DNA of 64,000 nucleotides from positions 1 to 64,000 of the IMG/VR virus record IMGVR_UViG_3300045902_000324; one strand, given 5' to 3'. Position 1 is the stretch's first letter; each line of letters starts with the position of its first letter. Below the pieces are notes generated by a model that was not told the origin of the DNA, made no database searches, and was given only the letters and a program-made list of their open reading frames with translations. Position numbers and translations under genes: made by a program. The stretch comes from a virus. Below are positions 34,701 through 52,934 of this stretch, piece after piece.

Positions 34701-37568
34701 ACTTCAGGCACAACGCAGGTTAGAGCTGGGCAGCTTATCGGTACGGTCGGCGCGACCGACAACCTATCGTCAGGCGCACACCTCGATGTCAAAATAAAAG
34801 TCGGAGACAACTACGTAGATCCACAGCAGTACATGGCGGCCCGGTCGGGCAGCGGGGGTTACGCCGAAACAGCTGATCGCCGCAGAATCAACATTGGCGC
34901 GGCTTCCAGGGATGCTAGTCCCGCATCAGTCCCGACTGGTTCCAGTCCGGCACCCGCAGCTAGACCGACTGATACGCCTGCTCCTGCGGCATCCAGAGGT
35001 CGATATGTGCCACGAGGCGGAACGCTAAGTAGAGCGGAGCGTGTGCAGTCTGACCCGGATGGCGCTGCGGCAATAACGGCGACAGCCAACAGGCTAGGAT
35101 TACCTGTGGATCAGTTCGCGGCGTTGATGTCGTGGGAGTCAGGCGGATCATTCAACCCAAACGTGATGGGTGGCGACAACAACCAGTACCAAGGACTCAT
35201 CCAGTTCAGCAGGGACAACCAAAACACCTATGGTATCCGGCAGGGGCAAACTATTTCTGAGCAGATGCCCGCGATCGAACGCTACCTGCAAGATAGAGGG
35301 TTCCAGCCGGGACAGCACGACATCCGCCACGCATATTCGGCGGTGCTGGCTGGCAACGCAGACGAGCGGTACTGGAACAGACGAGATAGCAACGGCACGT
35401 CAGTTCGCAATGCTGCGCCAAAATTTCAGCAGGGCGATCACTACGAACGGGCGCAGCAGTTTCTACGAGATAGCGGTGTTCCAGTTGGTTCTGTGACGCA
35501 GGGCGGTGCTGCTCCAGTCATGACAGGTTCATCTGTCGATACCGGGGCCGCGCAGCTTCAGCTCAATTCTGCGATGGATCTAAGTACTCAAAACGCAGCA
35601 CAGATGGCTGGGTCAGTTCGCTCAGAACTAGAGGCACAAAACCTCCTATCTTCTGCTGAGTTCGACGCGCTCATCTCAGATCAGCAGCGGGCACTTAATC
35701 GTGGCGTGGAGTCTGCCCAAGATTCAGCCAGGGGGATTGCGCGATCGCAGGAAGATATTCGGCTTGAGCTACTAGGGAACTCTCCATACGCCGAGTACGT
35801 TCGCCAAACCACACAGCAAAACAGGGCGTTCGAGGATGCCAATCGAGACACGCTCAAAGCTGTGGAGCGTGGTGAGAACAGCATTGGAGTTCTGACTCGT
35901 TCGAGGGAAGTCTTGCAAACGCAGATTCAGCGGGCGCGAGACATGGGAGTAGACTCTGGCAGTATTGCTCGACTGGAATCACTACTGCCTAACATTGATG
36001 AGGCGATCGCCGCCACACAGACAGAGCTGGATCGGATGCGTTCACAGCTTGACGAAGCAGAAGACTTATTCAAGCAGCGCAACGAAATGTTGGAGCGCGA
36101 ATACAAAGCGGAAATGGATGCACGCCGCGCGGCCTCCCGGCAACGAACCGAAAATCTTCAACTCACAATGCGGGCGGCTGAGCTATCGGATGCTGGCAAT
36201 GATGTAGGTGCAGGATTCATCTCTCAGCAGATCAGAGAACGCGACCTGAATCAAAACTACGAAGAGTCCATGCGTCCTCTGCGCGAGGAACTGGAGGTCG
36301 TCAACGCTGAGATCGAAAAGATGCGCGAAGCTGGACTAGCTGTGGACAGCACGGCTGTGACGGTTGCCACAGAGCGGGCAGCGTACTTGGAAGAAATGCT
36401 CGACGGACTTGGCACACAGCGGTCGATCGAGATCGAGTTGAACTATCGAGAGATGGACAACAATTTCAGATCGATGCAGGAGCGTCTATCTAGCGAACGA
36501 GACGAAGCTGCTGCTAACCTGCTCGAAAGTCAGGGTGACGTATTCGGCGCTGCGTCAATCCGCGAGCGTTCCGCCACAACTGCGGAAAATCAGCGATTCT
36601 CTGAACAGATTGCTCAGATCAACTCGTTCGCTGCGTCAGGACGTTATGCGCCAGAAGACATCATGCGTATGCGGACTGAGGCAGAACAGCTTAATTCCAT
36701 CAACCTCCAATCGATTGACGGGCAGTTCAAGGATCTTGGCGAGACAATCGGGGGTATCGCTCAGGGATCGCTAAACAATTTCTTCACATCCATCCTGAAC
36801 GGCAGCAAGTCGGCGGGCGAGGCTTTCAAAGACCTCATCGGCAGTATGCTTTCCCAACTGGCCCAACTGGCAATCAACTCAGCGTTCGCAGACATTTTCG
36901 GCGGGGGGCTGGGCGGCGGCGCGGCTGGCGGTAGCAAAGGTAGCGGCATCTCTGGCATCCTTGGCGCAGTCATGGGCGGACTGGGCGGCGGTGGCGGCGG
37001 CAAAGACTTTGGCGGTACTGTCGCCAGTGTCGCGGCGGGTGGGGGCGGTGGAAAAGGCTGGGGCAGCTTGATCGGTACTGTCGCATCCGCTTTCCTTGGC
37101 GGCATGAAGGACGGCGGTTCTGTGGCAGACACCAGCAGCGCATTTTCCGAGGCACGTAAAAGCCGAGGCGCAATCGGTGACGCACTGCGGCGGGAAGGGC
37201 CGAACTCGATACTGTCAGCGCTCACCCCAGGCGAGGAAGTGCTGGACACAACAGAGGCCGGTATCTATCGACGGATGTTCCCACGGGGTATCCAAGACAC
37301 GCTGGCATCTGGTTTCAACGGTCGCGTAGCCAACTTCAAGCTTGGTGGCACGGTGGGCGGCGGTGGCAAGATGGCGTTAGCTCCATCGATCGCAGGCGGA
37401 GGCGGTGGGGTATCAATCAGCGCCCCAATCAACATGACGCTTGCAGACCGGGGTAAGGGGGACGTTGACCCGGCTGAGTTTCAGCGGGCTGTGGACGCTC
37501 GCTTCCACCAGCTTGTGCAGCAAGAGTCTCGCCCAAATGGTTCACTCAATAAACTAGGACGCCGTTAA
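31701..37568 (+). CDS. Tape measure protein with M23-like peptidase and lysozyme-like domains
   Basis: 1955 aa, Ala-rich; TMLGSAE...FAASTPFEL; HNGID...YNHL...AHLD; LMSWESGGSFNP...GLIQF. Confidence 0.92.
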   Translation: MESIGKARLVIGGDTSELEAALEKIEQVGRALGRQIGEEIAAGLSTAKTQAGRAGAEGAAAAAAGIKSNSDLKNAFSGMSQGARAAFEGVRKEASTTAASVVRMFSGSNSAAIALAKNLNTTFSGAKGFAKDLGLSAQAASSAIDRLKQLEAVGATTADKYRVLRDEFGLTAIQMGAISKASKGVEAALAAQAKAAESAAERMAAAQAQAAAAQATRQQNSSGNVVQLAANTGTSYGGAQKMAADLGLTAQAAAIAVVRIQQLNAVGATTEQQFDALSDELGLTRTQFDALSKQADRTGKTIVQAFAAAIKGTGSLKDALKLSVSSAMSGMKGALQSGMQGIFQGFGQSLFGTISSVILAPFKMLQSEIGNLISVGSMAESAEIAFATMLGSAEAGKAALEDLIDFAASTPFELPEVRSSGQMLLAFGIEAENMIETLRVLGDVSAGVSQPMGEIAEIYGKAKVQGRLFSDDIARLTGRGIPVTEELAKQFGVGTDKVKELVQAGKIGFPQIEKAFASMAGESGQFNNLMAKQAQTIGGKLSNLADNFTKIRIEAYDALQPAFTAGLDFIAELVSSVQGVNIFKPLAAQAKKFSDLLEKNPQYVKALSAQLKSGISTVLENIANLAEQLLNYLIENPDAISDMIDRIGELGKALGTILKMAADLTIAFANAANAVSGIGDNAIAKAALSMTGVGQGAGMIGALTSGYQTVRGWFGGNQQSAATPVGAIDPTQTDGSDKEGLNKAPVQARAGATKAAAAQVTAVDEALAEKLRDISTNISEFYNTLKRNAEELALTIKQTDLNNSLLKAKTELTKALSGFGESFFDDFVGRLSGLIDKLFEPLENFLTAQEKLLSVNTQLQDSLNRGAGLAAGLNGAMLPSGAPGAPGSSGGFYSPLQGRSVQDLVNYQESAGQSFRATRNRRSGRGLHNGIDFDSRVGGGRGAQVVAMEGGTASIRAIGTNQAGEQSMQVKIQFTDENGRPIEYQYNHLSEAAVQQALGQTSGTTQVRAGQLIGTVGATDNLSSGAHLDVKIKVGDNYVDPQQYMAARSGSGGYAETADRRRINIGAASRDASPASVPTGSSPAPAARPTDTPAPAASRGRYVPRGGTLSRAERVQSDPDGAAAITATANRLGLPVDQFAALMSWESGGSFNPNVMGGDNNQYQGLIQFSRDNQNTYGIRQGQTISEQMPAIERYLQDRGFQPGQHDIRHAYSAVLAGNADERYWNRRDSNGTSVRNAAPKFQQGDHYERAQQFLRDSGVPVGSVTQGGAAPVMTGSSVDTGAAQLQLNSAMDLSTQNAAQMAGSVRSELEAQNLLSSAEFDALISDQQRALNRGVESAQDSARGIARSQEDIRLELLGNSPYAEYVRQTTQQNRAFEDANRDTLKAVERGENSIGVLTRSREVLQTQIQRARDMGVDSGSIARLESLLPNIDEAIAATQTELDRMRSQLDEAEDLFKQRNEMLEREYKAEMDARRAASRQRTENLQLTMRAAELSDAGNDVGAGFISQQIRERDLNQNYEESMRPLREELEVVNAEIEKMREAGLAVDSTAVTVATERAAYLEEMLDGLGTQRSIEIELNYREMDNNFRSMQERLSSERDEAAANLLESQGDVFGAASIRERSATTAENQRFSEQIAQINSFAASGRYAPEDIMRMRTEAEQLNSINLQSIDGQFKDLGETIGGIAQGSLNNFFTSILNGSKSAGEAFKDLIGSMLSQLAQLAINSAFADIFGGGLGGGAAGGSKGSGISGILGAVMGGLGGGGGGKDFGGTVASVAAGGGGGKGWGSLIGTVASAFLGGMKDGGSVADTSSAFSEARKSRGAIGDALRREGPNSILSALTPGEEVLDTTEAGIYRRMFPRGIQDTLASGFNGRVANFKLGGTVGGGGKMALAPSIAGGGGGVSISAPINMTLADRGKGDVDPAEFQRAVDARFHQLVQQESRPNGSLNKLGRR

Positions 37569-37570
37569 AA

Positions 37571-40500
37571 ATGCCAATCCCTATTTTGGAACTTGACCCG
37601 GATTGGGAGATTCAAGAAGTCTCCACAATCGACCAGTACAAGTCTGAGCTAAATGACGGGTACAAGCAGACGGCAACCAAAAATCTACCGTCGAGCATTC
37701 TGTCATGGGAAGTCCGAAAGACGGGGCTGTCTCAGGCAAATCTAAATCTGCTACTTGGCCAGCTAGAGACATTCGCAGGTAGCACCCCGTTTTCGTGGCG
37801 TCCCACGGAAACCGTCTCCTATCGAGCCTACTTCTGCGACGAGTGGACGGTGATTTCATACGACACGGATTGCTGGCAAATATCCGGCAAGTTCGTTCAA
37901 GACGTTGGCGGCGAGTGTGTAGAGCTGCTTGATCTGATCGACACCGTGGAGATCACAAACTGGCTGGCGGCAAGCGATGTCTGGCTAACCACATACACCC
38001 GAAACACCCTCCCACTTATCATGAACTCTGTGGCAGGGAAACCCTATCTGCTGGTCAACTCTTTTCACGATGTGCTGGGTCGCGGCGGATACTTTCCCGG
38101 CAGCGCCGGGACGACCGAAGGGCAGTTCCTCATGATCCGAGCCTGTATGGATGTGTTCAACCAGACAGGCATTGCATCATGGCGGCAGCGGGCGATCGAC
38201 ATGGCTGTCGCGCTAGAACCATCTCTGTACCGAGGGCAGACCGTACCTGCCGATCCAAACACGCTTTGGCTCCCACACTGGGTGTTTAACGTCAAGGCTC
38301 CGTTCACATCAAAAGGACTAAACACAGCCCCCAACCCGCTCAACTATGGTTACTTCGATCTCCCTGTAACATTCACGGCAGGCGTAGGTCAGATCTCGGC
38401 TGGAGCACCTAACCAAGGCGACAAGCTATCTGATGTCTACAGCGTCTATGCGACCGGAGCAAAGCTGCTGTGGCAAAACGTATTCGCGCCAGTCGTGTTC
38501 GGCACCCAGTACCAAGTCGAATACTGGGTGGTCAACTTCATGCTGGGTGGACAAAACTTCAGGATCTACCCGTCCTCAGCTTCGAGCAACGGAGCACCAC
38601 CACTCGCTACGACTGAGCCTGCGGGACGGATCAAGCTGACCACAGCGTTTACCGGGAGTCTCAAAGTTACCTACGCTGCTTACACTGGGAGCGTTATCGT
38701 TGCGAATCAGGTCTTTGACCCGTATCCGTTCTGGCGCACGTTGTTGCCAGGTGAAATCAACTCTGCGTTTGACGTTCACTGGTGGGCTTACGATGCGTAC
38801 GTGAAGCTGGCGGCAACTACAGGTCTTCTCAAGTGGACGCAGGCGGCTGAGGCGACTCGTGTCAACACGATCAACACAGCAGTCGTCCAAAACCCAACAA
38901 ACTGGTACAAAACAGAGGACAACCCAAATCCATTCGGCTACCCCGGCTCTCAGGCTATTCAGGTAGACAACCCAAACGGCTACACCGCCAGCAGGGAGAC
39001 AGCGATCGCGGGGCTACTCAATACCCTAAAGCTGGTCGTTGCGGCGGCACCGGGCGGCACGTTTCCTAGCATCGAGGTTCAGAACTTCGCGGTTCAAGCG
39101 CAGATTAACGCGGCTGTAACGATCGAGGTGGCGATCGCGCAGACTACCACAGCGACGGTTCGCATTGCGCTGTCGCTATCGCCAAACGCATTTGACTTCA
39201 GCCAAACCTATTACGTTAACTGGCACGTCGAGGCGAACACAACGGCGCTTACATCAACATCGTTCATCCCAGAAAACTTCTTCCGCTGGGATAACAACCT
39301 GGTGTGGCATTTGTCGATTGCTGAAACGCCTATCTACGTGTTCTCTGGCGGCGGCGGCAGCGCAACAACAGGGACGTTCCAGGCTACGAACATCCCATAC
39401 CTGGGGAAAACACTCAAGCAGGCTGTGGGCGAAATTCAGATGAACGCAGCAGCAGGCTTTGCTGGTGCAGGGTTAGTGCTCATCGGCAGACAAGTTAGAC
39501 GCCCTCCACAACTCGCGTTCAGGACAGACAAGACCATCATCCTTCGGCTTACCGACGGCGAGGGGTACAAGTGGGACAAGGAGATCGCCAATACAGGCGG
39601 GTGGGTCTTTGTTCGGTATCCGTGGAGCGCCTTCGAGTTTTCACCTAATAACATCGGGGAGGAACCGCAGGCACCGGACACACAGAACGACATCCAAAAT
39701 ATCGAGTTCATTGCGGTCGCTGGAGAAGGGTTGACCACAGTGCGGATCTGGTGGGCATCCGAGGGAACCACCAACCCACCCGCCCAGCTTCCTATTCCGG
39801 CTCAAACATACAAAGCCGCCGTGGTGTCTAGAAACCGGAATGCTCATACTTTTTGGGTCGGAAACTTCCGCCCGGCAAACAGTCCGAGTGATCAACTAAA
39901 GTACAACCCCGGCGTCGTTCCTTTTACAGTAAACATCGTCAACGGGGTTGTGGATGCTTGGCGGGGACTGCCTTACATGGGCTATCAAGACCCAGAACTT
40001 TGGTTCAAATGGGGGCTTACGGATCGCTGCCAGCAAGTGCTTGACTGTCTCGATGCCGCTCAAGATGCATACGCGGCATCCACAGGGGTTGTAGGGGCGT
40101 TTGCTCCAGTTTTCAAATGGGGCTACTGGGACGGCGGCGACTACCTGGGCGGACTGAACACGTTTAGCTGGTCTGGGGCTGACCCGAATACAAGCTGGGG
40201 ACAATACTTCTATCGTCCGTTAGAAGCGACTGCCAAATACTGGAGCCAGAACCCAGGCGATCGCAAAGCAGATCAAATCGTCATGCGAGGGCTTGCGATG
40301 CTGGACGCGCACTACCTAAAAAACAATACCAGCGTACCGTTTACTGATTTCCCACAGGGTGCTCCGCCATTCGCTGGCTACAACGATCCTGCTGCGTCAG
40401 CTCTGATTGGCCGAGCAGCCGTCTATGCAAATCTAGCTGGCGGCAGTCCGTCTATCACGCTGCGTGTCATCAACCGGACAATAAAACACCTCCAGAGCCA

Positions 40501-40681
40501 GTATGTCTCAACAGGTATCATGGCGGGCACCTGGAGCGCCGGGCAGCCAACCTTCGTCAGTGGAGGAACAATCTATCGTGAATTCTTTGGGTTTTGGCTG
40601 GCCGAGATCTATCTATACTTAGCACTCTTGCTCGAAAAGAAGAACGCCCTAGTGATGCCCCCTTGTGGCACACGAATCTAG
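37571..40681 (+). CDS. gpM-like distal tail domain fused to a large glycanase/carbohydrate-binding-like region
   Basis: N-terminal DGYKQ...PFSWRP...CDEW...GKFVQ; then TTEGQ (GH8-like TSEGQ) and an aromatic-rich body. Confidence 0.65.
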   Translation: MPIPILELDPDWEIQEVSTIDQYKSELNDGYKQTATKNLPSSILSWEVRKTGLSQANLNLLLGQLETFAGSTPFSWRPTETVSYRAYFCDEWTVISYDTDCWQISGKFVQDVGGECVELLDLIDTVEITNWLAASDVWLTTYTRNTLPLIMNSVAGKPYLLVNSFHDVLGRGGYFPGSAGTTEGQFLMIRACMDVFNQTGIASWRQRAIDMAVALEPSLYRGQTVPADPNTLWLPHWVFNVKAPFTSKGLNTAPNPLNYGYFDLPVTFTAGVGQISAGAPNQGDKLSDVYSVYATGAKLLWQNVFAPVVFGTQYQVEYWVVNFMLGGQNFRIYPSSASSNGAPPLATTEPAGRIKLTTAFTGSLKVTYAAYTGSVIVANQVFDPYPFWRTLLPGEINSAFDVHWWAYDAYVKLAATTGLLKWTQAAEATRVNTINTAVVQNPTNWYKTEDNPNPFGYPGSQAIQVDNPNGYTASRETAIAGLLNTLKLVVAAAPGGTFPSIEVQNFAVQAQINAAVTIEVAIAQTTTATVRIALSLSPNAFDFSQTYYVNWHVEANTTALTSTSFIPENFFRWDNNLVWHLSIAETPIYVFSGGGGSATTGTFQATNIPYLGKTLKQAVGEIQMNAAAGFAGAGLVLIGRQVRRPPQLAFRTDKTIILRLTDGEGYKWDKEIANTGGWVFVRYPWSAFEFSPNNIGEEPQAPDTQNDIQNIEFIAVAGEGLTTVRIWWASEGTTNPPAQLPIPAQTYKAAVVSRNRNAHTFWVGNFRPANSPSDQLKYNPGVVPFTVNIVNGVVDAWRGLPYMGYQDPELWFKWGLTDRCQQVLDCLDAAQDAYAASTGVVGAFAPVFKWGYWDGGDYLGGLNTFSWSGADPNTSWGQYFYRPLEATAKYWSQNPGDRKADQIVMRGLAMLDAHYLKNNTSVPFTDFPQGAPPFAGYNDPAASALIGRAAVYANLAGGSPSITLRVINRTIKHLQSQYVSTGIMAGTWSAGQPTFVSGGTIYREFFGFWLAEIYLYLALLLEKKNALVMPPCGTRI

Positions 40682-41133
40682 CGAATCGGGCCGTTTCTAT
40701 CACACACATATCGCACAATAGGGATCACGACATCATCTCCTGCTGCGATAGAACTACCGGGCACTGTGTCTCTATCTGCGTTCAATCCGAAGAACGTGAA
40801 CTGTGCAACACAAACACCATTGCTGCCGTGGTGGTCATAGTCGAGATCTGCTCCAAACGGCATGTCGAGTCTGTCCACCCACACCGCCTCAAGTCCGGCT
40901 GGCGGCACGTTGCGATCTCGGTCGAGTGGGGGCTGACCCGTATCGGACTGGATCTCCAACACCAGCGGTACCATATTTCTTGCTATCGACTGCGCCTCGG
41001 CATACAGAGCTTTGTTGCGCTGGTTCAAGTACGAGGGCAGCGCGATCGCAGACAGCACGCCGACAATCGCAATTGTCACTAACAGTTCGATTAGCGTGAA
41101 TCCTGGTTGACCATAATCAGTTCGTTCGTCCAT
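40678..41133 (-). CDS. Type IV pilin-like protein
   Basis: Class III signal peptide G|FTLIELLVTIAIVGVLSAIALPSYL; two C-terminal Cys. Confidence 0.9.
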   Translation of the reverse strand: MDERTDYGQPGFTLIELLVTIAIVGVLSAIALPSYLNQRNKALYAEAQSIARNMVPLVLEIQSDTGQPPLDRDRNVPPAGLEAVWVDRLDMPFGADLDYDHHGSNGVCVAQFTFFGLNADRDTVPGSSIAAGDDVVIPIVRYVCDRNGPIR

Positions 41134-42555: not shown

Positions 42556-43350
42556 CTATCCGTTAGGGTCTACTTGACAATGCCCAATGTGCTCAGACAG
42601 TGGCGCAGGCATACCCACAGCGAAGCCCTGCAACAAAAGGTCGCACTGTGGGTATGGACGCACCATCTCGTTCAACTCAGATATCAACGAGTCTGATTCG
42701 ACCCACTCGGCAATACACAACAATCTAAGATCGTGACAAATGCTGAACAACCCTCGGATAACAGCCCGATGTTTTGAGCTGTCCAGAACTCTAATCACAA
42801 ACCCGCCGTTTATCTTTAGTCCGTCAATCTCTAGATTCACGATTGAGTCTAGATTTGAGTAACCTATCCCAATATCGTCAAGCAAAATGGGAGACAATAG
42901 CGCCATACGCATCACGCTATCCCCAATTACTCGATAGTCGAGAGGCTGAGACTCAAGTACTTCTAGAATCAAACACGGCTCGATTAAACCGGACAGTACA
43001 TCACCAACCCGGTCAGGTAAATCTTTATCGTGCAGTGATGCCGCCGTTAGATTAACTGTAATTCTAATGTGCAGGTATCCACACGCTCTGAGCATCCGTA
43101 AATCATCGACAACTTGCCGCAACACCCAGGCATCAAGTGCGATCGCCAGCGTGTCAATTTCAAGAACGTCTGGAACGAACTGAGCCGCTTCAATGACACT
43201 CCCATCAGACCGGGACATCCGAATCAGAGCCTCAAACATTTTTGCAGGCTGCCCCAGTTCTGACGGACGTTTTACTGGCTGATAGTAGACTCGCAAATCG
43301 CCACCGCCAGCCCGCAGTGCGTCCCACACTTTTTGTTGTATCTGGTTCAT
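42556..43350 (-). CDS. Stand-alone EAL-domain c-di-GMP phosphodiesterase
   Basis: YYQP, FEALIR, TVNL, ILEVLE, DDIGIGYS, LKI, IAEWVE, LQGF; ATG 43350 overlaps the J stop (TGATG). Confidence 0.92.
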   Translation of the reverse strand: MNQIQQKVWDALRAGGGDLRVYYQPVKRPSELGQPAKMFEALIRMSRSDGSVIEAAQFVPDVLEIDTLAIALDAWVLRQVVDDLRMLRACGYLHIRITVNLTAASLHDKDLPDRVGDVLSGLIEPCLILEVLESQPLDYRVIGDSVMRMALLSPILLDDIGIGYSNLDSIVNLEIDGLKINGGFVIRVLDSSKHRAVIRGLFSICHDLRLLCIAEWVESDSLISELNEMVRPYPQCDLLLQGFAVGMPAPLSEHIGHCQVDPNG

Positions 43351-46064
43351 CAAACGAAAACTAGATTCTGGGATCTGGACATATCCAAACCACCTGTGAT
43401 TGCTGCAATCACAGGCTGGCTGTTTACCCACAGCGAGGTGCGATTGTTAACATCAAGCACGGCGGCGCGACAGTAGTATGTTCCCCTGGTCAGATTCTCG
43501 AAACGACACTCATTGGTGCCTGCGGGCACTAGTCGAGTGTCCTGCCATACAATCCCATCGCGGGAATATTCAACATACACGCCGCGCAGGACGGACGCAC
43601 TGGCTCCAACAACCCATCGGATGATCAACGTGTACTGCGGAGAAACAGACGGGTCAATCGCCTGTACAGCGATCGCCTGCCCCAAAACAGATTGAAGTGG
43701 TTCTACAACAGGTGGAATCGTAAACCGAGTTGGGGTCGGATCAATGGCTATATCATTCTCAATGGCAAGCCATTTGTTCGCATCGTACTGGATGCAGTTG
43801 ATGTCGATTTTTGTCGGGTCTTGCTGCGGGCGGACTGAGAGCACTCTAAACAGTTGAGCTTTCACCGAAGGCGACTGAATTACCCAATTCGATTCAGCCT
43901 GTGGGAGCTGCGAGAACGGCGGCCACACCTGTACCACATTTGACGTGACATTAACGCCGATCGTCCGGGTTTCGAGCAATCCGTTTGGCAACATGACAGA
44001 AAGCGTCATGCTCGTATTTACGGTGACTGTCGCGTCTAATCGAATCGTGTTAGAGTTAATAACTTGTCCGATCAACCCGCCATAGCGAACGTTGGCAAAG
44101 TTTGAGTCTGCGACTTGAATCACTTCACCGGGTCGGCAGTATGCAGCGTAGCTTCGAGCGGTGAAACTTAGCGATCGCGTTTCATTCTTCGAGCTGTACA
44201 GAATCCATCTACTATTTCTAATCGCTAGAGATCTTGAGGTGCACCCAAAAAAAGCAACCTCAACATCGCGGACACCATAGCGGTTGATCGCCTCAATATC
44301 CTCGACTACTTCCACAGCCCGTTGGTAATAGTCATTCGGGTCATTCCAGACACCTCTAACAATCGTATGCCGAGTGCGGACAGCCGTTGAGGAATAAACG
44401 AAATCCCCTACCACATCAGCCTGTGTGAACTGATGATGACTCACCGGAGTTGGACGATCTTGCCAGAACTTTACGGTACCCTCCGCCCAGTATGCCCGCA
44501 TGTGGCACGCCGAGCAAAAGGCGTTGATTACATCCCACGCTTTTTCAGCGGAGGCGATTTGAGTGTTGCAGGAATATCGGCGCTCAGATCCGCCGAATCC
44601 CGTAGGTACATACCCATTGTTATAAACAGACGCATCATACAGATCCCACTTGTCGATTAAAGAGTCATCCAAGTATCGACCCAGCCCATAGCGCCGATTT
44701 GTCAAAATGTCGAACAGTTGCCAAACCGGGTCACTGGTGGCTGTTGCAGGTGTATAGAAATTGCCGTCCCACACGCCTGAGAAGTTCAGCCCGCGATCGC
44801 CTGCGACAATAGCATTCGTGGGAATCCGAACACGCCGTCCACCAACTCGATACTGACGAGACGGGATCGAGCTGAACTGGTCTGGGCTAAACTGAAGCCC
44901 GATATACGCTGTATACGGATAATTCAACTTATTGGTCGTGACCTCGGTATAGCTAATCCACCGAACCACCTGAATTGTGCGAGACGAGTTGGAATCACTT
45001 GAAATACGCCTCAGTCGGATCTGAAAATTGCCGACCGTACCAGACTGGTTGTTTACCTTGAAAGCGTGCTCAAACTCAGTCAGTCCACTAAACTTAGCTT
45101 TCAGATTTTTTCTGTAGCGAACTGTCCAGGGCGCGATGCCCTGCTTTATTTCGATCTGGTACTCTACGTTCGTCCCCTTTACATCTCCATCCTCCTCATA
45201 CTTCACGAGTTGGATGCCCAGGCGAACACGTATGACATCACACTCCGTGTTCACAAATGCGCGAGTCGCTGGGCCGGACGCATTCTTGATTTCAATATTT
45301 ACAAAAGTCTCATTGCTGATCTCAACTCCTTCGTCTGAGATAATCTGCTGCGTTGCGTTCCCGCGCCGGAACTTATACCGGAAGCCCACAAAGTTGAGTG
45401 AGTTATTTGGGTTCTGGACAGGCGTCTCAGATAGATAAATCCCTTTACGAGCACCAATCAGCCCTTCAATCGGGCCCTCTGAAACAGCCTCCAAGACGTA
45501 CGCTCTTGAGGTCGATCGCCCGTCGTCATCGGCCTCCTTTGGGCTGGACGCATTTTTTCCGCCGCCTCCGTTGTGAACACGCAGCCCATGTTCGCCAACC
45601 AGGAAGCTGTGGTAGTTCTCAACTCGCAGATTCCATACGGGTGCCACGCCACGCAGTCTAGATCGCTCCAGAGGTCTAACCAGGTTTTCTCTATCAAATA
45701 GCGCAGCGTCTCGGCCAAGCTTGCCTATCTCCTGAAACGCCCCGCCATCGGTCAGAAACCAGTGGATCGGAGTTGCTGCTATGGTGCCGCCCCAGTAATC
45801 GTACTCCCACACCTCGTGGTTTCCGTGGAACTCTAGCGTTGCTTTGGCTACATGCAAATCGCCTTTTGAGTCAAACGCTGATACCCATGTACCCTCCGCC
45901 ACATCCTGGATTTCTACAGTGCCATCTAGCGTGTGGATTAGCGTGCCGGACGGGAAACACCCCCCGCCTGATCCAAAAACAAGCCCGTCCACATGGCTTG
46001 ACGGGATGGATGCAACAGCCTTAGTGCGGCGACGCCTAACCTTCGTCATCGGAATCATCCTCAA
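43350..46064 (-). CDS. Lambda gpJ-like tail tip / central fibre protein with an N-terminal Hint domain
   Basis: VSEGPIEGL, LNYPYTA, WDGNF, DPVW, YGLG, PGEVIQVAD; probable start at M6 (46049). Confidence 0.93.
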   Translation of the reverse strand: MRMIPMTKVRRRRTKAVASIPSSHVDGLVFGSGGGCFPSGTLIHTLDGTVEIQDVAEGTWVSAFDSKGDLHVAKATLEFHGNHEVWEYDYWGGTIAATPIHWFLTDGGAFQEIGKLGRDAALFDRENLVRPLERSRLRGVAPVWNLRVENYHSFLVGEHGLRVHNGGGGKNASSPKEADDDGRSTSRAYVLEAVSEGPIEGLIGARKGIYLSETPVQNPNNSLNFVGFRYKFRRGNATQQIISDEGVEISNETFVNIEIKNASGPATRAFVNTECDVIRVRLGIQLVKYEEDGDVKGTNVEYQIEIKQGIAPWTVRYRKNLKAKFSGLTEFEHAFKVNNQSGTVGNFQIRLRRISSDSNSSRTIQVVRWISYTEVTTNKLNYPYTAYIGLQFSPDQFSSIPSRQYRVGGRRVRIPTNAIVAGDRGLNFSGVWDGNFYTPATATSDPVWQLFDILTNRRYGLGRYLDDSLIDKWDLYDASVYNNGYVPTGFGGSERRYSCNTQIASAEKAWDVINAFCSACHMRAYWAEGTVKFWQDRPTPVSHHQFTQADVVGDFVYSSTAVRTRHTIVRGVWNDPNDYYQRAVEVVEDIEAINRYGVRDVEVAFFGCTSRSLAIRNSRWILYSSKNETRSLSFTARSYAAYCRPGEVIQVADSNFANVRYGGLIGQVINSNTIRLDATVTVNTSMTLSVMLPNGLLETRTIGVNVTSNVVQVWPPFSQLPQAESNWVIQSPSVKAQLFRVLSVRPQQDPTKIDINCIQYDANKWLAIENDIAIDPTPTRFTIPPVVEPLQSVLGQAIAVQAIDPSVSPQYTLIIRWVVGASASVLRGVYVEYSRDGIVWQDTRLVPAGTNECRFENLTRGTYYCRAAVLDVNNRTSLWVNSQPVIAAITGGLDMSRSQNLVFV
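45570..45959 (-). other. Hint (intein/BIL-type) domain, 130 aa, no endonuclease
   Basis: CFPSGT (Cys1), ATPIH block B, VWNLRV block F, terminal VHN, followed by Gly. Confidence 0.9.
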
Positions 46065-46629
46065 TCATGTACGACCGGATCGAGGCACTGAGCACCTGAC
46101 TACCAACGAGCAGTTCTCCATACACGACTGGCAGACGACCCCCTTGAGTCGTCGTATTGACCCCGCCATTAAAAATTAACGATGGTTTGTTTTTTGCATC
46201 ATTCGGGTCAGGTGCTTTGGGCTGGTTAAACAGTTCCATGATGCCGGACAGTGCCAGACTACCCCCGATCAGTGCGACGGATGCCGCCGACAACCCCAGG
46301 AAGCCCACGCCAGTCGCACCCAAAACAACCAGACCGATTCCAAGCAAAATTTTGCCGAATGCCCCACCTCCACCCAATGGCGTTGGCGCTATCGTAATTG
46401 TCTGTTTTCCAGTCGGCATCGAGACGTGCTGTTGCTCAATAGCCCAATCCCCGACAGTAATCTGGAAACCTACCCCACGCTCATGCGCGACGACCATGTA
46501 GTTGCGAAATGTCGGGAACGCTGACTCAAGGGCCCTGATCGCTTCTTTCACCGATCCAACGTTTAATCGGATCTCAGAAATGAACCGATCTGCCAACTCA
46601 TCTTTCAACACAACAGTCACCATCGGCAT
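46036..46629 (-). CDS. Lambda gpI-like (ubiquitin-like) tail assembly protein
   Basis: SVKEAIRAL...IAPTPLGGGG, TM segment, FNGGVNTTTQG.LPVVYGE. Confidence 0.9.
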   Translation of the reverse strand: MPMVTVVLKDELADRFISEIRLNVGSVKEAIRALESAFPTFRNYMVVAHERGVGFQITVGDWAIEQQHVSMPTGKQTITIAPTPLGGGGAFGKILLGIGLVVLGATGVGFLGLSAASVALIGGSLALSGIMELFNQPKAPDPNDAKNKPSLIFNGGVNTTTQGGRLPVVYGELLVGSQVLSASIRSYMIEDDSDDEG

Positions 46630-47429
46630 TACAAAAACGCCTCATGTCGAAAGGTAAACCGTGCAACCTCCTGCCAGTGCCCGCCGTACACTCTGGTTTC
46701 TGACAGGCGATCGCCGTTCAGCAAGTGCAGCAGCACCGGACGATCACCGACTTCCACAATCACGCCGCAGTGGTGCGGAATCTCTGACTCGATAGCCATG
46801 ATCGGTACGTCATACAGCCGCAACGGTTCAGTCGGATCGATTTCCACAAATCCGATCTGCGGCATATACTCTGTGAACGTGGCCCAGGCACCGCCACGTA
46901 GCTGGATAGCTGGCTCCGGTGCCCTATCAAAATCAGGCAGTTCAATATTTAAGAATCCACGGTAGAAATTCCGCAACAGCGTGTAGCAGTCCGCCCTCGC
47001 CCACACCCAGCGCCAGCCCAGGTAGAACTCTAAATCTGTTGGCTGCCCAATTCGGGGTTGCAGAGGAAACGGATTTAGCCCAGCAGGATCGTAAAAATCC
47101 CAAACCCTGTCCAACCTGTGGAACATGGCAATCGGATTCATCAACGCTCGTCCAGTGTTGATGTCCATGTAAGACAATTCAGCAGGCTGCGTTTCAAGCA
47201 CATGGCTGTGGTAAACCGATTGAACAGACATGCCGTTGTCAGACAATGCATCGTACGCCTTTCGGTCAAACGCAAAATAGTTGGCTGTGTCGCCAGCAAC
47301 GTTTTGGAGCGGCGCGACCGTAAGCATTCCAGACGGGTCAACGCAGACAGCACCACAGATTTCCTCATCTGGGTTTTCGTCAGCGAGTGCTTCAATCTGC
47401 AATCGGATTTCGGATGAGTAGGGCAACAT
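46629..47429 (-). CDS. Lambda gpK-like JAB + NlpC/P60 tail assembly protein
   Basis: EEICG, YHSH...LSYMD; DCYTL...HCG...LLH; probable start 47429. Confidence 0.9.
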   Translation of the reverse strand: MLPYSSEIRLQIEALADENPDEEICGAVCVDPSGMLTVAPLQNVAGDTANYFAFDRKAYDALSDNGMSVQSVYHSHVLETQPAELSYMDINTGRALMNPIAMFHRLDRVWDFYDPAGLNPFPLQPRIGQPTDLEFYLGWRWVWARADCYTLLRNFYRGFLNIELPDFDRAPEPAIQLRGGAWATFTEYMPQIGFVEIDPTEPLRLYDVPIMAIESEIPHHCGVIVEVGDRPVLLHLLNGDRLSETRVYGGHWQEVARFTFRHEAFL

Positions 47430-47469
47430 CTGTGATGGGCGAAACACCCTAGACATTACCCAGCGGGCG

Positions 47470-48135
47470 CTAAAAACGTCTCAGTCCTGGGAAGCCGCCG
47501 AAAGGCAAAACTGAGTTTTTACCGAATCGTCTGGTGCAGGCTGTCACAGACTTTGAACAGTCATCCAGCGACGGGTCTAAGGTTCGCTTATTGTCCAAAG
47601 TGAAATACGTGGTGCCGACATAACTGCACTCAGCGGAGCGATACACCCACGGGCACTTTGTACCGCATGGTCGTCCCGGCACGGACTCGTCTACAAAGTC
47701 AATTGGTGCAGACAGCTCAAACTCCAGCATCTTTCCAGGGATCTCCTGAATACGCTGGCTGATTACATACAGTCCGTCCAGCCTCAATGCTGCGGGATCT
47801 GCGGTTGTCTCTGAGTCGAGATATCGTTTCAGCGTCCGATAGACAGCTAGTCTGGCACCCTCAAGCCCGTCATAGTAATAGACCAGGTTGGAAATACCTT
47901 TCGTCGTGTCATCCACACGCAGCTTTGGTCTGGCTAACGACCCTTCAGATGACATCTCTTCACCGGACAGTTCGCAATTTACTGGCGTGTATTGGACGCC
48001 GCCCATAACCACACCAACGCCAGCCGTAAAGTACGCCGTTTCTGCCAAGTTACGACGGTTGAAGTTTGTCATGCGAAACAGCGTCAGTACGGCATCATGT
48101 TCAAGCTGCTGAAGCGATGGGAAAAAAACTGTCAT
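47470..48135 (-). CDS. Lambda gpL-like minor tail protein
   Basis: CPWVYRSAECSYVG, DDCSKSVTACTRRF, PFGGFPG. Confidence 0.93.
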   Translation of the reverse strand: MTVFFPSLQQLEHDAVLTLFRMTNFNRRNLAETAYFTAGVGVVMGGVQYTPVNCELSGEEMSSEGSLARPKLRVDDTTKGISNLVYYYDGLEGARLAVYRTLKRYLDSETTADPAALRLDGLYVISQRIQEIPGKMLEFELSAPIDFVDESVPGRPCGTKCPWVYRSAECSYVGTTYFTLDNKRTLDPSLDDCSKSVTACTRRFGKNSVLPFGGFPGLRRF

Positions 48136-48449
48136 GGTGCGGGGGACCTTTCAAATTCTGCGGAGAACCCCCACAGCCCGACGGTTCCGTACCACTGCCA
48201 GCGCCATTGCGTGCAGGTATATTGAGCGTTCTGAAAAACAAACCGTCTTCCGTCACGCTCGATTAGGAACGCCTGCACTTCCGTATATCGCGTCGTGTTG
48301 ATTTGCACGAACCAGGTACGATCCGTCCGGTTCACGTCATACAAAACCGGGCGCTGCTGGATTCCCTGAACTCGCGCCGATGGCGATCGCACTTTGGTGC
48401 GATAGCTGGACTCTCGTGCTATCGATATTGGGAATGTCGGGGGTGGCAT
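48132..48449 (-). CDS. Second gpM-like minor tail protein
   Basis: AFLIERDGRRFVF...YTCTQW...AEFE; ATGA overlap with L. Confidence 0.7.
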   Translation of the reverse strand: MPPPTFPISIARESSYRTKVRSPSARVQGIQQRPVLYDVNRTDRTWFVQINTTRYTEVQAFLIERDGRRFVFQNAQYTCTQWRWQWYGTVGLWGFSAEFERSPAP

Positions 48450-48455
48450 TGCGTC

Positions 48456-48480
48456 GGGTATGGTCTTTTGAACCATACCC
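48456..48480. promoter_or_regulatory. Palindromic pair of class II (late) promoter elements
   Basis: GGGTATGGT-cttttga-ACCATACCC in the 39-bp gap between the divergent gpM2 and endolysin genes. Confidence 0.7.
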
Positions 48481-48488
48481 ACACACAC

Positions 48489-51680: not shown

Positions 51681-52934
51681 ATGATGACACGCAGAGTTAC
51701 CTTTAGGCTGTATCCATCTGAAGCGCAAACGGCAAAGCTGTTTGAGGCTCGGAGGCTTCACGCCTATCTCTATAACGCTTGCGTTGAGCATCGTAAAACG
51801 AGCTATCAGAAGTTTGGCAAGTCCATCAGCTATTTTGATCAGCAAGCCGCGCTTGTACCGTTTAAGGCTGATTGGCAGGAGTATAGAGCGCTCAATCATG
51901 GCTCATTGCAAGCCACAGTGAAGCGGGTTGATTTTGCCTTCCAGCGCTTTTTCAAAGGACTGGGTGGGTATCCCAAGTTTCAAGCGATTCGCCGTTACTC
52001 TGGCTGGACATACCCTGATGCCCGTCAAGGCTTTAAGGTGCATTCAGACGGCAAGAATGGATACTTGGAATTGCGGGATCTAGGGCTAAAGCTCCAGATG
52101 CGAGGGCAAGCGCGAACTTGGGGCGCTCCCACGACTTGCACAATTGTCTATCGTAACGGGCTATGGTTTGCCAGCATCACGGTAAATTGCGAGGTTGCGC
52201 GCAAAACCGGCAATGGCGCGGTAGGAATCGATTTTGGCGTACTGACGGCTGCGGCATTGTCAAATGGAACCAAGATCGAAAACCCGCGCTTCATTGCCAA
52301 AACGCAAGCCAAGGTTCGCAAAGCAAGCAAGGCAAAGCGTCGCAAGCGCTCACCCAATCTCAAGCAAAAAGTTAAAGCGTCAAAACGATGGAGGAAAGCG
52401 TCTAAGCGGGTATCAAAGCTGCAACGCAAAGTTGCAAATCAGCGGCAGAACTGGGTACATCAAGTCTCTACACAGATAGTCAGCAGTAATAGCTTGGTAG
52501 CGACTGAAAAGTTAAACCTCAAAGGGATGACTCGCAAGGCGAGGAAAGGAAAACGCAAGGCGCAAAAGTCAGGGCTAAACCGCTCCATTCTGGATGTTGG
52601 GATGGGGATGTTGCGCGCTGCGATTGCGTATAAGTTGGCGGAAGCAGGGGGTTTCTTTGTGGAGGTGCCGACGCTCACGGTTAAGCCTTCTCAGACTTGC
52701 CCCAGTTGTGGTCATCAGGAGAAAAAACCACTTGAGCAGCGAGTGCATCATTGCCAGCAATGCGGTTATGTGGAGGATAGAGATGTGGCGGCTGCTCAAG
52801 TCATGCTCAATTGGGCACGGGGTAAGGAACTTGCCTCGTCAAACGTGGATGGGTCTGGCTCTACTGACTGCGGAAGCATGAAGCAACTAGCCCAAACGAA
52901 GCGTCAGAAACTCCTAGCTCAGCGAAGCGGCTAG
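51681..52934 (+). CDS. tnpB: TnpB RNA-guided endonuclease
   Basis: FRLYP, GIDFG, TEKL, CPSCG...CQQCG, DRDVAAA. Confidence 0.95.
   Translation: MMTRRVTFRLYPSEAQTAKLFEARRLHAYLYNACVEHRKTSYQKFGKSISYFDQQAALVPFKADWQEYRALNHGSLQATVKRVDFAFQRFFKGLGGYPKFQAIRRYSGWTYPDARQGFKVHSDGKNGYLELRDLGLKLQMRGQARTWGAPTTCTIVYRNGLWFASITVNCEVARKTGNGAVGIDFGVLTAAALSNGTKIENPRFIAKTQAKVRKASKAKRRKRSPNLKQKVKASKRWRKASKRVSKLQRKVANQRQNWVHQVSTQIVSSNSLVATEKLNLKGMTRKARKGKRKAQKSGLNRSILDVGMGMLRAAIAYKLAEAGGFFVEVPTLTVKPSQTCPSCGHQEKKPLEQRVHHCQQCGYVEDRDVAAAQVMLNWARGKELASSNVDGSGSTDCGSMKQLAQTKRQKLLAQRSG

What the first reader, a model, noticed from the sequence alone, without database searches (positions are those of the whole stretch)
45570..45959. 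Hint/BIL domain lacking a +1 nucleophile inserted in the Gly-rich N-terminus of tail-tip protein J
Seen: VFGSGGG-[CFPSG...TPIH...VHN]-GGGGK. The domain is 130 aa, has no homing endonuclease, and the +1 residue is Gly, not Cys/Ser/Thr. Established: canonical intein splicing needs a +1 nucleophile, whereas bacterial intein-like domains without one auto-cleave or splice by aminolysis. The neighbours gpI (ubiquitin-like, ...PLGGGG) and gpK (JAB protease) form a Ubl/JAB pair. Inference: J matures by self-processing to expose an N-terminal GGGGK. The Arg-rich leader ending in Gly-Gly would form a thioester resembling an activated Ubl C-terminus, giving a self-processing or ligation step in tail assembly.
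Basis: partly seen in the sequence, partly recalled or inferred. Interest (0 to 1): 0.82.

Follow-up and report, generated by a model that had tools for sequence, protein, structure and literature searches.

The report
Self-cutting intein-like domain on tail-tip J
The tail-tip protein of this hot-spring phage carries a small, apparently active intein-like self-cutting domain inside the glycine run at its very start; the same layout recurs in many uncultured phages, I found no paper describing it, and it gives a natural system for asking what such domains are for.

Summary
Window 45570-45959 (- strand) encodes a 130-aa HINT mini-domain (Cys1, TPIH, VHN) between ...LVFGSGGG and GGGGK... at the start of a lambda-J-like tail-tip protein. 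It has no endonuclease, and the +1 residue is Gly.

By sequence and predicted fold, its closest solved relative is the type-A bacterial intein-like (BIL) domain of C. thermocellum (2LWY).

It is not a one-off. At least 76 protein clusters (50% identity), from uncultured phages and from prophage-like loci in several bacterial phyla, have the same layout. The +1 residue is G/A/K/Q in all 75 representatives where it could be read; one further locus has Thr. J proteins without the Hint start M-x-x-LIIGAGGGGK, so the Hint sits inside J's own N-terminal motif.

The Hint has diverged along with J under strong purifying selection. Self-excision is the most likely reading: a thioester forms at Gly-1 and Asn cyclises. 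This yields J starting at GGGGK, or J re-joined to its leader by aminolysis.

The Arg-rich leader is not conserved. The Ubl/JAB neighbours are generic to lambda-like tails, so the ubiquitin-like ligation idea stays speculative.

One new, unexplained finding: in many relatives the motif before the Hint is kept identical, at protein level only, to a second copy after it.

The scan had already noted related glycine-Hint-lysine modules at the C-termini of phage tail proteins on other DNA.

The parts
43350..46049 (-). Gene for the lambda-J-like tail-tip protein precursor (899 aa from ATG 46049; stop at 43352-43350)
   Evidence: ORF. The database protein P0003 is 899 aa. Pfam FNIII-A_GpJ (E 1.2e-23) and Phage-tail_3 (E 2.4e-16) are above threshold. 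NCBIfam lambda_TipJ aligns residues 166-865 to profile positions 2-689, E 6.8e-108.
46058..46062 (-). GAGGA Shine-Dalgarno-like site 8 nt upstream of ATG 46049. The J start overlaps the last 14 nt of gene I.
   Evidence: Read directly from the sequence.
45960..46049 (-). N-extein, 30 aa: MTKVRRRRTKAVASIPSSHVDGLVFGSGGG, ending in the canonical J N-terminal motif h-h-h-G-x-G-G-G
45570..45959 (-). 130-aa type-A BIL-like HINT mini-domain. Cys1 is at 45959-45957, block B T-P-I-H at 45773-45762, and terminal H-N at 45575-45570.
   Evidence: Invariant columns are listed.
45555..45569 (-). Start of the C-extein, GGGGK: +1 Gly and the conserved Lys at +5. The NCBIfam lambda_TipJ model aligns from +1 onward (its position 2).
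46036..46629 (-). gpI-like tail assembly protein: an N-terminal Ubl-type domain ending ...ITIAPTPLGGGG, then a hydrophobic Gly-rich part and a C-terminal domain
   Evidence: Pfam Lambda_tail_I residues 6-87, E 3.2e-6. phrog_32, E 1.1e-39. Sequence.
46629..47456 (-). gpK-like protein: a JAB/MPN-like N-terminal half (EEICG...HSHVLETQPAELSYMD) and a C-terminal half with NlpC/P60-like motifs (ADCY...HHCG)
   Evidence: Pfam Prok-JAB, only E 0.008 and below threshold. phrog_30 minor tail protein, E 7.5e-34. Motifs read by eye. No PDB sequence hit.
47470..48135 (-). gpL-like minor tail protein
   Evidence: Pfam Phage_tail_L, E 1.1e-36. phrog_18, E 3.1e-55.

Best explanation
The segment is a catalytically intact type-A bacterial intein-like (BIL/HINT) mini-domain. 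It lies inside the glycine run of the canonical N-terminal motif of a lambda-J-like tail-tip protein (M-x(n)-h-h-x-G-x-G-G-G | Hint | G-G-G-G-K...).

The most likely mechanism is post-translational self-excision from the J precursor:
- Cys1 attacks the Gly(-1) carbonyl in an N-S acyl shift, assisted by the block-B Thr/His. This gives a thioester.
- The terminal Asn, assisted by the penultimate His, cyclises and breaks the Asn-Gly(+1) bond.
- Because +1 is Gly, no branched intermediate can form. Either the thioester is hydrolysed and mature J begins at GGGGK, or the freed alpha-amine of Gly+1 attacks the thioester and re-joins the 30-aa leader to J. The second outcome would restore an h-h-h-G-x-G(n)-K N-terminus like that of Hint-less J proteins.

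Shown here: the domain's identity, its intact catalytic residues, its exact position, its wide recurrence, its divergence along with J, and strong purifying selection.

Inferred: that processing happens at all, and which product forms. My rough split is cleavage only 45%, aminolysis splicing 30%, other 25%.

Whether the step serves assembly (a pro-domain or timing role) or the domain is a tolerated intein-like passenger is not resolved.
For: Domain identity: PDB sequence hit 2LWY (C. thermocellum BIL), E 1.9e-7 for the single sequence and 3.2e-21 for the profile. The predicted fold matches 2LWY at TM 0.88, followed by the Tetrahymena BIL2 structure 6Y75 and mini-inteins.

Catalytic residues: Cys1, the block-B Thr and His, and the terminal Asn are invariant in 13 relatives that are 30-56% identical. 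His-Asn is present in 73 of 75 cluster representatives, -1 is Gly in 70 of 76, and Cys1 is present in 72 of 76.

+1 residue: G 67, A 5, K 2, Q 1, and never C, S or T among those representatives.

Position: the NCBIfam lambda_TipJ model aligns from residue +1, at profile position 2. Hint-less relatives start M..LIIGAGGGGK.

Selection: Hint dN/dS is 0.07-0.13, equal to or lower than the J body, and dS is similar, so the Hint has diverged along with J. Hint-bearing J proteins form two clusters on the J-body tree.

Structure context: the flanks are predicted disordered (pLDDT below 50), as expected for flexible junctions.

Published chemistry: type-A BILs have His-Asn and lack a +1 nucleophile. 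They mostly cleave, but can splice through attack of the freed amino group on the thioester (PMC4031507).
Against: There is no experimental datum for this protein or any family member: no product masses and no virion N-terminus.

If only cleavage occurred, the leader would be discarded. Yet its last ~8 residues keep the J-type motif across relatives under 50% identical. In 'type II' relatives those residues are under protein-level selection to match a second copy downstream. Simple cleavage does not explain this.

A subclade (L004-L009) has Ser-Ser-Asn instead of Val-His-Asn, so C-terminal chemistry may differ there.

The lambda structure papers I read (PMC10721106, PMC11101478) place gpJ's N-terminal region next to the surface-exposed Fe-S domain of gpL. 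Steric exclusion of a retained Hint therefore cannot be assumed.
Confidence: 0.7

Rival explanations
1. Ubiquitin-like or BUBL-like ligation. The Hint thioester-activates the Gly-Gly end of a Ubl-tail-like leader. The leader is then transferred to an amine other than the alpha-amine of Gly+1, for example the conserved Lys just after the Gly run (giving an isopeptide or branched N-terminus) or a Lys on another tail-tip protein. This would make a covalent step in tail-tip assembly.
For: The second-closest structure is Tetrahymena BIL2, which is reported to form a Lys isopeptide and to conjugate the preceding Ubl without E1/E2/E3 (PMC8616854).

A Lys follows the junction at +1 or at +5 to +7 in type I proteins, including this one.

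The N-extein end (h-h-x-G-x-G-G-G) resembles the tail of the gpI Ubl domain (h-x-h-x-P-h-h-x-G-[AS]-G) in the same loci.

The type II C-extein (R-x-R-[FY]-P-V-V-x-G-[AS]-G-G) resembles gpI's I-R-F-V-P-V-V-x-G-[AS]-G.

The N-extein motif is under purifying selection.
Against: The N-extein is a 7-33-aa peptide, not a Ubl domain.

In type II proteins the first Lys lies 17-22 residues from the junction.

Lineage-specific co-variation between the gpI tail and the J motif is weak (p about 0.014, uncorrected for relatedness).

The Ubl/JAB neighbourhood is generic to lambdoid tails and gpI-like genes also precede J in most Hint-less loci (PMC1779556).

No acceptor has been identified.
Confidence: 0.12
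2. The Hint is a purely selfish or neutral intein-like passenger. It sits in a site where excision is tolerated and contributes nothing to tail assembly. Selection acts only to keep excision efficient.
For: It sits in a conserved motif of an essential structural protein, as inteins do.

It is present in only a subset of J lineages.

Some J proteins carry two tandem copies in the same Gly run (P0012, P0020, P0068), which looks like local propagation.

Closely related Hints occur in unrelated contexts: Tim44-like exported proteins and RHS toxins.
Against: It has no homing endonuclease.

dS of the Hint equals that of the J body, and the J tree needs only about 2 gains or losses, so there is no sign of recent spread.

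The Hint is more conserved than the J body in group B.

The flanking motif pair is under selection, which a passenger does not obviously require.
Confidence: 0.3
3. The Hint is retained in mature J as a non-processing structural or adhesive domain.
For: In the lambda structure papers I read (PMC10721106, PMC11101478), gpJ's N-terminal region lies beside the surface-exposed Fe-S domain of gpL, so a small extra domain might be accommodated there.
Against: All residues needed for both cleavage reactions are invariant or nearly so across relatives only 30-56% identical to the window's domain. A purely structural domain would not need them.
Confidence: 0.06
4. It is a canonical class-1 intein that splices through a +1 nucleophile, and the +1 Gly is a sequencing or assembly error.
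For: One relative (L089, an Aquiluna MAG) has Thr at +1.
Against: The +1 codon is GGA, followed by three more Gly codons. Contigs from other runs are identical. None of the 75 cluster representatives read has C, S or T at +1.
Confidence: 0.01

Closest known systems
Type-A bacterial intein-like (BIL) domains (Amitai 2003; Dassa 2004; C. thermocellum BIL structure 2LWY, Aranko 2013; reviewed in PMC4031507 and PMC7765530)
   Same: - It is the best sequence and fold match.
- Size is about 130-138 aa, with no endonuclease.
- It has Cys1, block-B TxxH and C-terminal His-Asn.
- In block F it has Asn where the DnaE intein aligned has Asp (V-[WY]-N-L/F; compare 2LWY VYNFKV).
- It has no +1 nucleophile.
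   Different: - Described BILs lie in variable regions of non-conserved bacterial proteins such as adhesins and polymorphic toxins.
- This one lies at one fixed site inside a conserved motif at the extreme N-terminus of a conserved phage structural protein.
- The N-extein is only 7-33 aa.
- Often a copy of the flanking motif is repeated after the domain.
Canonical mini-inteins (e.g. Mtu RecA, Npu DnaE, cyanophage-like gp41-1)
   Same: - HINT fold and the same blocks A, B, F and G.
- Insertion in a conserved site of an essential protein.
- Common in phage genes.
   Different: - +1 is Gly (or Ala/Lys/Gln in relatives), so the transesterification step is impossible.
- It sits at the very start of the host protein rather than in an active-site motif.
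BUBL loci of ciliates: ubiquitin-like domains flanked by BIL domains (Dassa 2004; Chiarini 2021; PDB 6Y75/6TMM; PMC8616854)
   Same: - Second-best structural match.
- The BIL follows a Gly-Gly-ending segment.
- A Lys lies near the C-junction.
- A Ubl protein (gpI) is encoded next door.
   Different: - The N-extein is a short peptide, not a Ubl domain.
- gpI is a separate polypeptide with no Hint.
- No conjugation has been shown.
Pretoxin-HINT (Pfam PF07591) of polymorphic toxins
   Same: It is the best Pfam family for all 13 aligned relatives. It is thought to release the downstream module by autoproteolysis.
   Different: The window's domain scores below the Pfam threshold. The downstream module is a tail-tip protein, not a toxin. 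The upstream part is a tiny leader rather than a large delivery protein.
Glycine-Hint-lysine end modules on phage tail fibres and tail-tip proteins, noted earlier in this scan (e1-3482894, e1-5319644, e1-5865214)
   Same: The same BIL-A-like domain type, behind a poly-Gly run, on phage tail proteins, and apparently undescribed in the literature.
   Different: Those sit at the C-terminal end of the host protein with only a few residues after them. This one sits at the N-terminal end with the whole protein after it.

Membership tests
HINT superfamily | Horseshoe-like all-beta HINT fold | tested here: met
   In the AF2 model, residues 31-160 have pLDDT above 90. Foldseek gives 61 PDB hits at E<=1e-3; the hits listed are BIL and intein structures, with the top TM at 0.88.
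HINT superfamily | Block A nucleophile (Cys/Ser) at position 1 and block B T-x-x-H | tested here: met
   C1 and T63-P-I-H66 of the domain are present and invariant in alignment A2.
Type-A BIL | C-terminal His-Asn | tested here: met
   The window has VHN. His-Asn is present in 73 of 75 representatives, and 2 have Ser-Asn.
Type-A BIL | No nucleophilic residue at +1 | tested here: met
   +1 is Gly (GGA) here. Relatives have G 67, A 5, K 2, Q 1. One exception with Thr was found among 10 genome loci (L089).
Type-A BIL | Closer to known BIL-A than to inteins or Hog domains | tested here: met
   2LWY is the top hit in the phmmer, profile and Foldseek searches.
Type-A BIL | Located in variable regions of non-conserved bacterial proteins | tested here: not met
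   It sits at a fixed site in the conserved N-terminal Gly motif of phage J proteins.
Type-A BIL | Autocatalytic N- and C-terminal cleavage (with or without splicing) | not testable with these tools
   This needs expression and mass spectrometry.
Canonical (class 1) intein | Cys/Ser/Thr at +1 for transesterification | tested here: not met
Pfam PT-HINT (PF07591) | Score at or above the gathering threshold (27.7 bits) | tested here: not met
   The domain alone scores 23.0 bits, E 1e-4. Within the whole protein it scores 17.3 bits. Relatives score better, with a best E of 4.3e-10.
Lambda J / TipJ tail-tip protein family | FNIII-A_GpJ and Phage-tail_3 domains, colinear alignment with lambda J, and an L-K-I-J gene order | tested here: met
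   Pfam hits are above threshold. lambda_TipJ aligns 166-865 to 2-689, E 6.8e-108, though below the model's curated cut-off of 1950 bits. gpL-, gpK- and gpI-like genes lie directly upstream.
BUBL-type Ubl-BIL conjugation unit | A ubiquitin-like domain directly N-terminal to the BIL | tested here: not met
   The N-extein is 30 aa and predicted disordered.

The most novel reading that the evidence does not exclude
The leader is not a throw-away peptide. Its end is a Ubl-tail-like motif (h-h-x-G-x-G-G-G) that is kept identical, by selection on the protein, to J's own N-terminal motif. It also resembles the C-terminal tail of the neighbouring gpI Ubl domain. The Hint would thioester-activate this motif and either hand it over or ligate it (to Gly+1, to the conserved Lys, or to a partner) when J docks into the tail tip. 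That would be a phage-encoded, E1-independent, BUBL-like covalent assembly step or checkpoint.
Probability: 0.12. Interest if true: 0.85.

Novelty: new variant of a known kind. Interest (0 to 1): 0.6.

Why it matters
The biological role of bacterial intein-like domains has been unclear since they were described in 2003. Here a type-A BIL recurs at one precise site of one well-understood machine, the lambda-type tail tip, whose structure and assembly order are known. It does so in dozens of diverged lineages, under strong purifying selection, with Gly at both junctions.

That makes the question directly testable: does a BIL without a +1 nucleophile cleave, splice by aminolysis or conjugate in nature, and does the step gate assembly?

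A naturally efficient Gly/Gly-junction self-processing module would also interest protein engineers, for traceless N-terminal Gly exposure or ligation without Cys.

If it proves to be only a tolerated passenger, it still extends the known range of intein-like elements to phage tail-tip genes.

Tried and rejected
Tools that gave nothing:
- Single-protein search for related loci in viral and genome contigs found nothing. Alignment queries did work.

Hypotheses rejected:
- An I-J fusion by frameshift, with the Hint separating I from J. J has its own GAGGA-N8-ATG start, and in relatives an in-frame stop lies 1-6 codons upstream of the Met.
- Recent horizontal spread or homing. The J-body tree needs only 2 changes, and the Hint's dS is about equal to the J body's.
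- A DNA-level direct repeat (target-site duplication or gene conversion) as the cause of the identical flanking motifs. 51 of 103 codons with identical amino acids differ synonymously, against 17 amino-acid differences.

Checks that were uninformative:
- AlphaFold of type I and type II N-termini predicts no structure or pairing for the flanks; pLDDT is below 50.
- GC content of the Hint (0.56-0.57) is only slightly above its neighbours and is explained by the Gly codons.
- gpK against PDB by sequence gave no hit.
- No RNA holder was listed for the stretch.
- Runs X4 and X5 hold only a 151-base piece.

Other searches:
- tblastn against 50,697 GenBank phage records found no Hint-bearing J. It found only an RHS/PT-HINT protein in a faecal contig and helicase inteins in Vibrio phages.
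- Literature searches found no paper on a Hint in J or in tail-tip proteins. One search, on 'aminolysis', was uninformative, and the Dassa 2004 paper is not held.
Full report

The - strand ORF 43350-46064 translates to ...HVDGLVFGSGGG|CFPSGTLIHTLDG...AATPIHWF...HSFLVGEHGLRVHN|GGGGKNASSPKEADDDGRSTSRAYVLEAVSEGPIEG.... The Cys codon is 45959-45957 and the Asn codon is 45572-45570. The finding's coordinates are therefore exactly a 130-aa unit, too short to contain a homing endonuclease. The +1 codon is GGA, read.

The likely start is ATG 46049. A GAGGA lies 8 nt upstream, and the start overlaps the last 14 nt of gene I. This gives a 30-aa N-extein and an 899-aa precursor, identical to database protein P0003.

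**The domain is a HINT domain of the type-A BIL kind**

Pfam alone is weak. Within the whole protein, Hint and PT-HINT score E about 5e-3. The isolated domain scores 23 bits against PT-HINT, below the 27.7-bit threshold.

Other evidence is strong:
- The single sequence matches PDB 2LWY, 'bacterial intein-like domain' of C. thermocellum, end to end at E 1.9e-7.
- A profile of 13 relatives gives E 3.2e-21 to 2LWY, then to Mtu RecA, gp41-1 and DnaE mini-inteins and to the Tetrahymena BIL2.
- An AlphaFold model built on 13 sequences has pLDDT above 90 for residues 31-160 and below 50 for both flanks.
- Foldseek ranks 2LWY first (TM 0.88, rmsd 1.6 A), then 6Y75, the BIL2 of the ciliate BUBL locus.
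- Block F reads V-W-N-L as in 2LWY (V-Y-N-F), where the DnaE intein aligned beside it has Asp.

**The host protein and its neighbourhood**

The host protein is a lambda-J-type tail-tip protein:
- Pfam FNIII-A_GpJ and Phage-tail_3 are above threshold.
- NCBIfam lambda_TipJ aligns residues 166-865 to profile positions 2-689. J proper therefore begins exactly at the +1 Gly.

Upstream on the same strand lie gpL-, gpK- and gpI-like genes. The window is part of a 97-kb IMG/VR virus record. Its sequence is held by hot-spring and microbial-mat metagenome runs, whose contigs are identical across this region.

TerL, the major head protein, a 1955-aa tape measure protein and a 1036-aa tail protein lie on the + strand. 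They converge on the L-K-I-J operon.

**The arrangement is a large family, not a one-off**

- A word-indexed search with residues 1-175 found seven other J-length proteins with the same N-terminal Hint. One is from Leptolyngbya sp. PCC 7375.
- A scan of viral contigs returned 80 J loci, of which 16-17 carry the Hint.
- An exhaustive profile search of 1.84 billion cluster representatives gave 204 hits at E<=1e-30. Among the 155 proteins analysed (the best 150 hits plus the seven found earlier), 76 have one Hint starting at residue 8-34 of a long protein. At least 53 of 74 of these show the J motif EGxIxG soon after it. Three more J-like proteins carry two tandem Hints.
- In these representatives -1 is Gly in 70 of 76. 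The last two residues are His-Asn in 73 of 75 and Ser-Asn in 2. The +1 residue is G 67, A 5, K 2, Q 1, and never Cys, Ser or Thr.
- One of ten further genome loci has Thr at +1 (L089).
- Carriers include MAGs or genomes labelled Castellaniella, Oxalobacter, Micrococcales, Pseudomonadales, Chloroflexi, Cyanobacteria, Aquiluna and Desulfovibrionaceae.
- None of 50,697 GenBank phage records has it.
- I found no paper describing it.

**'Inserted in the Gly-rich N-terminus' is the right description**

Hint-less relatives begin M-x(2-8)-L-I-I-G-A-G-G-G-G-K-G-G-G-G.... Hint-bearing proteins have M-x(n)-h-h-x-G-x-G-G-G before the Cys.

After the Asn there are two forms:
- Type I, as in this window: GGGGK follows at once.
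- Type II: a spacer G-G-[HY]-R-x-R-[FY]-P follows, then a second full copy of h-h-x-G-x-G-G-G-G-K.

The Arg-rich stretch of the window's leader is not conserved. Leader length ranges from 7 to 33 aa, with a median of 13.5.

**Evolutionary behaviour**

On a tree of the J body with the Hint excluded, Hint-bearing proteins form two clusters. Two changes suffice to explain this, and a single origin is not excluded.

Pairwise dN/dS of the Hint is 0.07-0.13. That is equal to or below the J body's 0.06-0.27, and dS is similar. The Hint has therefore diverged along with J under strong purifying selection, and nothing indicates recent transfer.

**A new observation that needs explaining**

In type II proteins, the last 8 residues before the Hint and the motif after the spacer match each other within each protein. 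The match includes lineage-specific oddities: GHGGG with GHGGG, GSKGG with GSKGG, GAKG with GAKG, VKGSKG with VKGSKG.

- Own pairs share 5.83 of 8 residues. Shuffled pairings share 4.94 +/- 0.11, with a maximum of 5.29 in 2000 shuffles.
- In 15 loci with DNA, 51 of the 103 codons that encode identical residues differ synonymously, for example Arg AGG against CGG in L089. Only 17 positions differ in amino acid.

The similarity is therefore maintained on the protein. It is not left over from a recent duplication or gene conversion. It follows that the N-extein end is functionally constrained and is not a disposable leader.

AlphaFold predicts no structure for either copy.

**How it most likely works**

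Published work on type-A BILs (reviewed in PMC4031507) describes three features:
- thioester formation at the N-junction;
- Asn cyclisation at the C-junction;
- because there is no +1 nucleophile, mostly cleavage products, with some splicing through attack of the freed alpha-amine on the thioester.

Every residue needed for this is conserved here, and both junction residues are unhindered glycines in flexible runs. I therefore infer self-excision, with confidence 0.7. The product is either J starting at GGGGK or leader-J re-joined. Lambda J, from my own memory of its sequence and not checked here, would begin with Gly-Lys-Gly after Met removal.

The conserved N-extein motif argues that the leader matters, which favours re-ligation or a docking role before cleavage. 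The complete second motif in type II proteins argues that C-terminal cleavage alone can yield a functional N-terminus. I cannot decide between these.

**The Ubl/JAB idea**

gpI here has the Lambda_tail_I Ubl-type domain ending ...ITIAPTPLGGGG. gpK has a JAMM-like motif and an NlpC/P60-like half, but only a sub-threshold Pfam JAB hit.

This trio (TAPI Ubl, TAPK JAB/NlpC, TAPJ) was described as the standard lambdoid/T1 neighbourhood in 2006, with JAB predicted to cut gpI after the Ubl glycine (PMC1779556). gpI-like genes likewise precede J in the Hint-less loci I examined. Their presence is therefore not evidence for a Hint-linked process.

Two things keep the idea alive at low probability:
- The structurally second-closest domain, ciliate BIL2, is reported to conjugate the preceding Ubl to a lysine (PMC8616854).
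- The J N-terminal motif resembles the gpI Ubl tail (h-x-h-x-P-h-h-x-G-[AS]-G) across loci, and the type II spacer plus motif (R-x-R-F/Y-P-V-V-x-G-A-G-G) looks like I-R-F-V-P-V-V-x-G-A-G of gpI.

Lineage-specific co-variation between the two is weak, at 3.21 against 2.92 of 7, p about 0.014, uncorrected for relatedness.

[quoted passage not shown] They also show that only the C-terminal part of gpI is resolved in the tip (PMC10721106, PMC11101478). The J N-terminus is thus at a junction of the tip proteins, but no published structure shows what the Gly motif does.

**Verdict**

This is a real, apparently active type-A BIL-like domain at a new, fixed and widespread location, the N-terminal Gly motif of phage tail-tip protein J. 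It is a new variant of a known kind, and the mechanism is inferred rather than shown.

Its Arg-leader and Ubl/JAB elaboration is not supported by the comparative data, apart from a weak motif resemblance.

Earlier agents of this scan reported related glycine-Hint-lysine modules at the C-termini of phage tail proteins (e1-3482894, e1-5319644, e1-5865214). They also reported the Tim44-like tandem-Hint family (e1-5021705), which I saw independently.

Noticed in passing
Relatives P0008-P0010, P0024-P0151 and loci L012-L091 (type II Hint-J proteins); not in the window itself: The ~8 residues before the Hint and a motif ~8 residues after it are kept identical within each protein, including lineage-specific variants. 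The codons differ synonymously, so this is protein-level selection. The cause is unknown.
   Followed up: partly
window 46036-46629 (gpI) against 45960-46049 (J leader); loci: The C-terminal tail of the gpI Ubl domain (h-x-h-x-P-h-h-x-G-[AS]-G) resembles the N-terminal motif of J proteins, both with and without a Hint. Lineage-specific co-variation is weak (p about 0.014). This raises the possibility that the gpK JAB peptidase also processes J leaders.
   Followed up: partly
P0012, P0020, P0068 (database proteins): These J-like proteins carry two tandem Hint domains in the N-terminal Gly run (GGGG|Hint|GGGGGKG|Hint|GGGGGK...).
   Followed up: no
P0011, P0013, P0014, P0018, P0026 and about 60 more (database proteins): The closest non-J relatives of this Hint are exported proteins. 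They have a signal peptide ending ARGGGG, then 3-5 directly abutting Hint domains separated only by KG/KGG/KGGG, then a Gly/Ser-rich stretch and a Tim44-like domain. This was already noted by the scan (e1-5021705) and was confirmed here with Pfam.
   Followed up: partly
L004-L009 and P0082 (viral contigs): A subclade of Hint-J proteins has Cys-Leu at the start and Ser-Ser-Asn instead of Val-His-Asn at the end of the Hint. It lacks the penultimate His but keeps the Asn and GGGGK.
   Followed up: no
L089:4947-5600 (uncultured Aquiluna MAG): This is the only Hint-J seen with a potential nucleophile at +1 (VHN|TGSGEGRLNAKIRGAGGGGGK). It might splice canonically.
   Followed up: no
window 42556-43431 (-), 40678-41133 (-): A stand-alone EAL-domain gene (Pfam E 1.7e-36) follows J directly. 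The operon ends with a pilin-like gene (phrog_3433). The first-stage reader also noted both.
   Followed up: no
window 31701-40681 (+) against 43350-48488 (-); 51681-52934 (+): The tape measure gene (1955 aa, with a metallopeptidase-like segment) and a 1036-aa tail protein are on the + strand. They converge on the L-K-I-J operon on the - strand, which is an inverted arrangement relative to lambda. A transposase-like gene lies nearby.
   Followed up: no
L001:3001-6702 (MT836326, human faecal phage-labelled contig): The only GenBank 'phage' record with a similar Hint is a 1233-aa RHS-repeat protein with a C-terminal PT-HINT. It is a polymorphic-toxin architecture, not a tail protein.
   Followed up: yes
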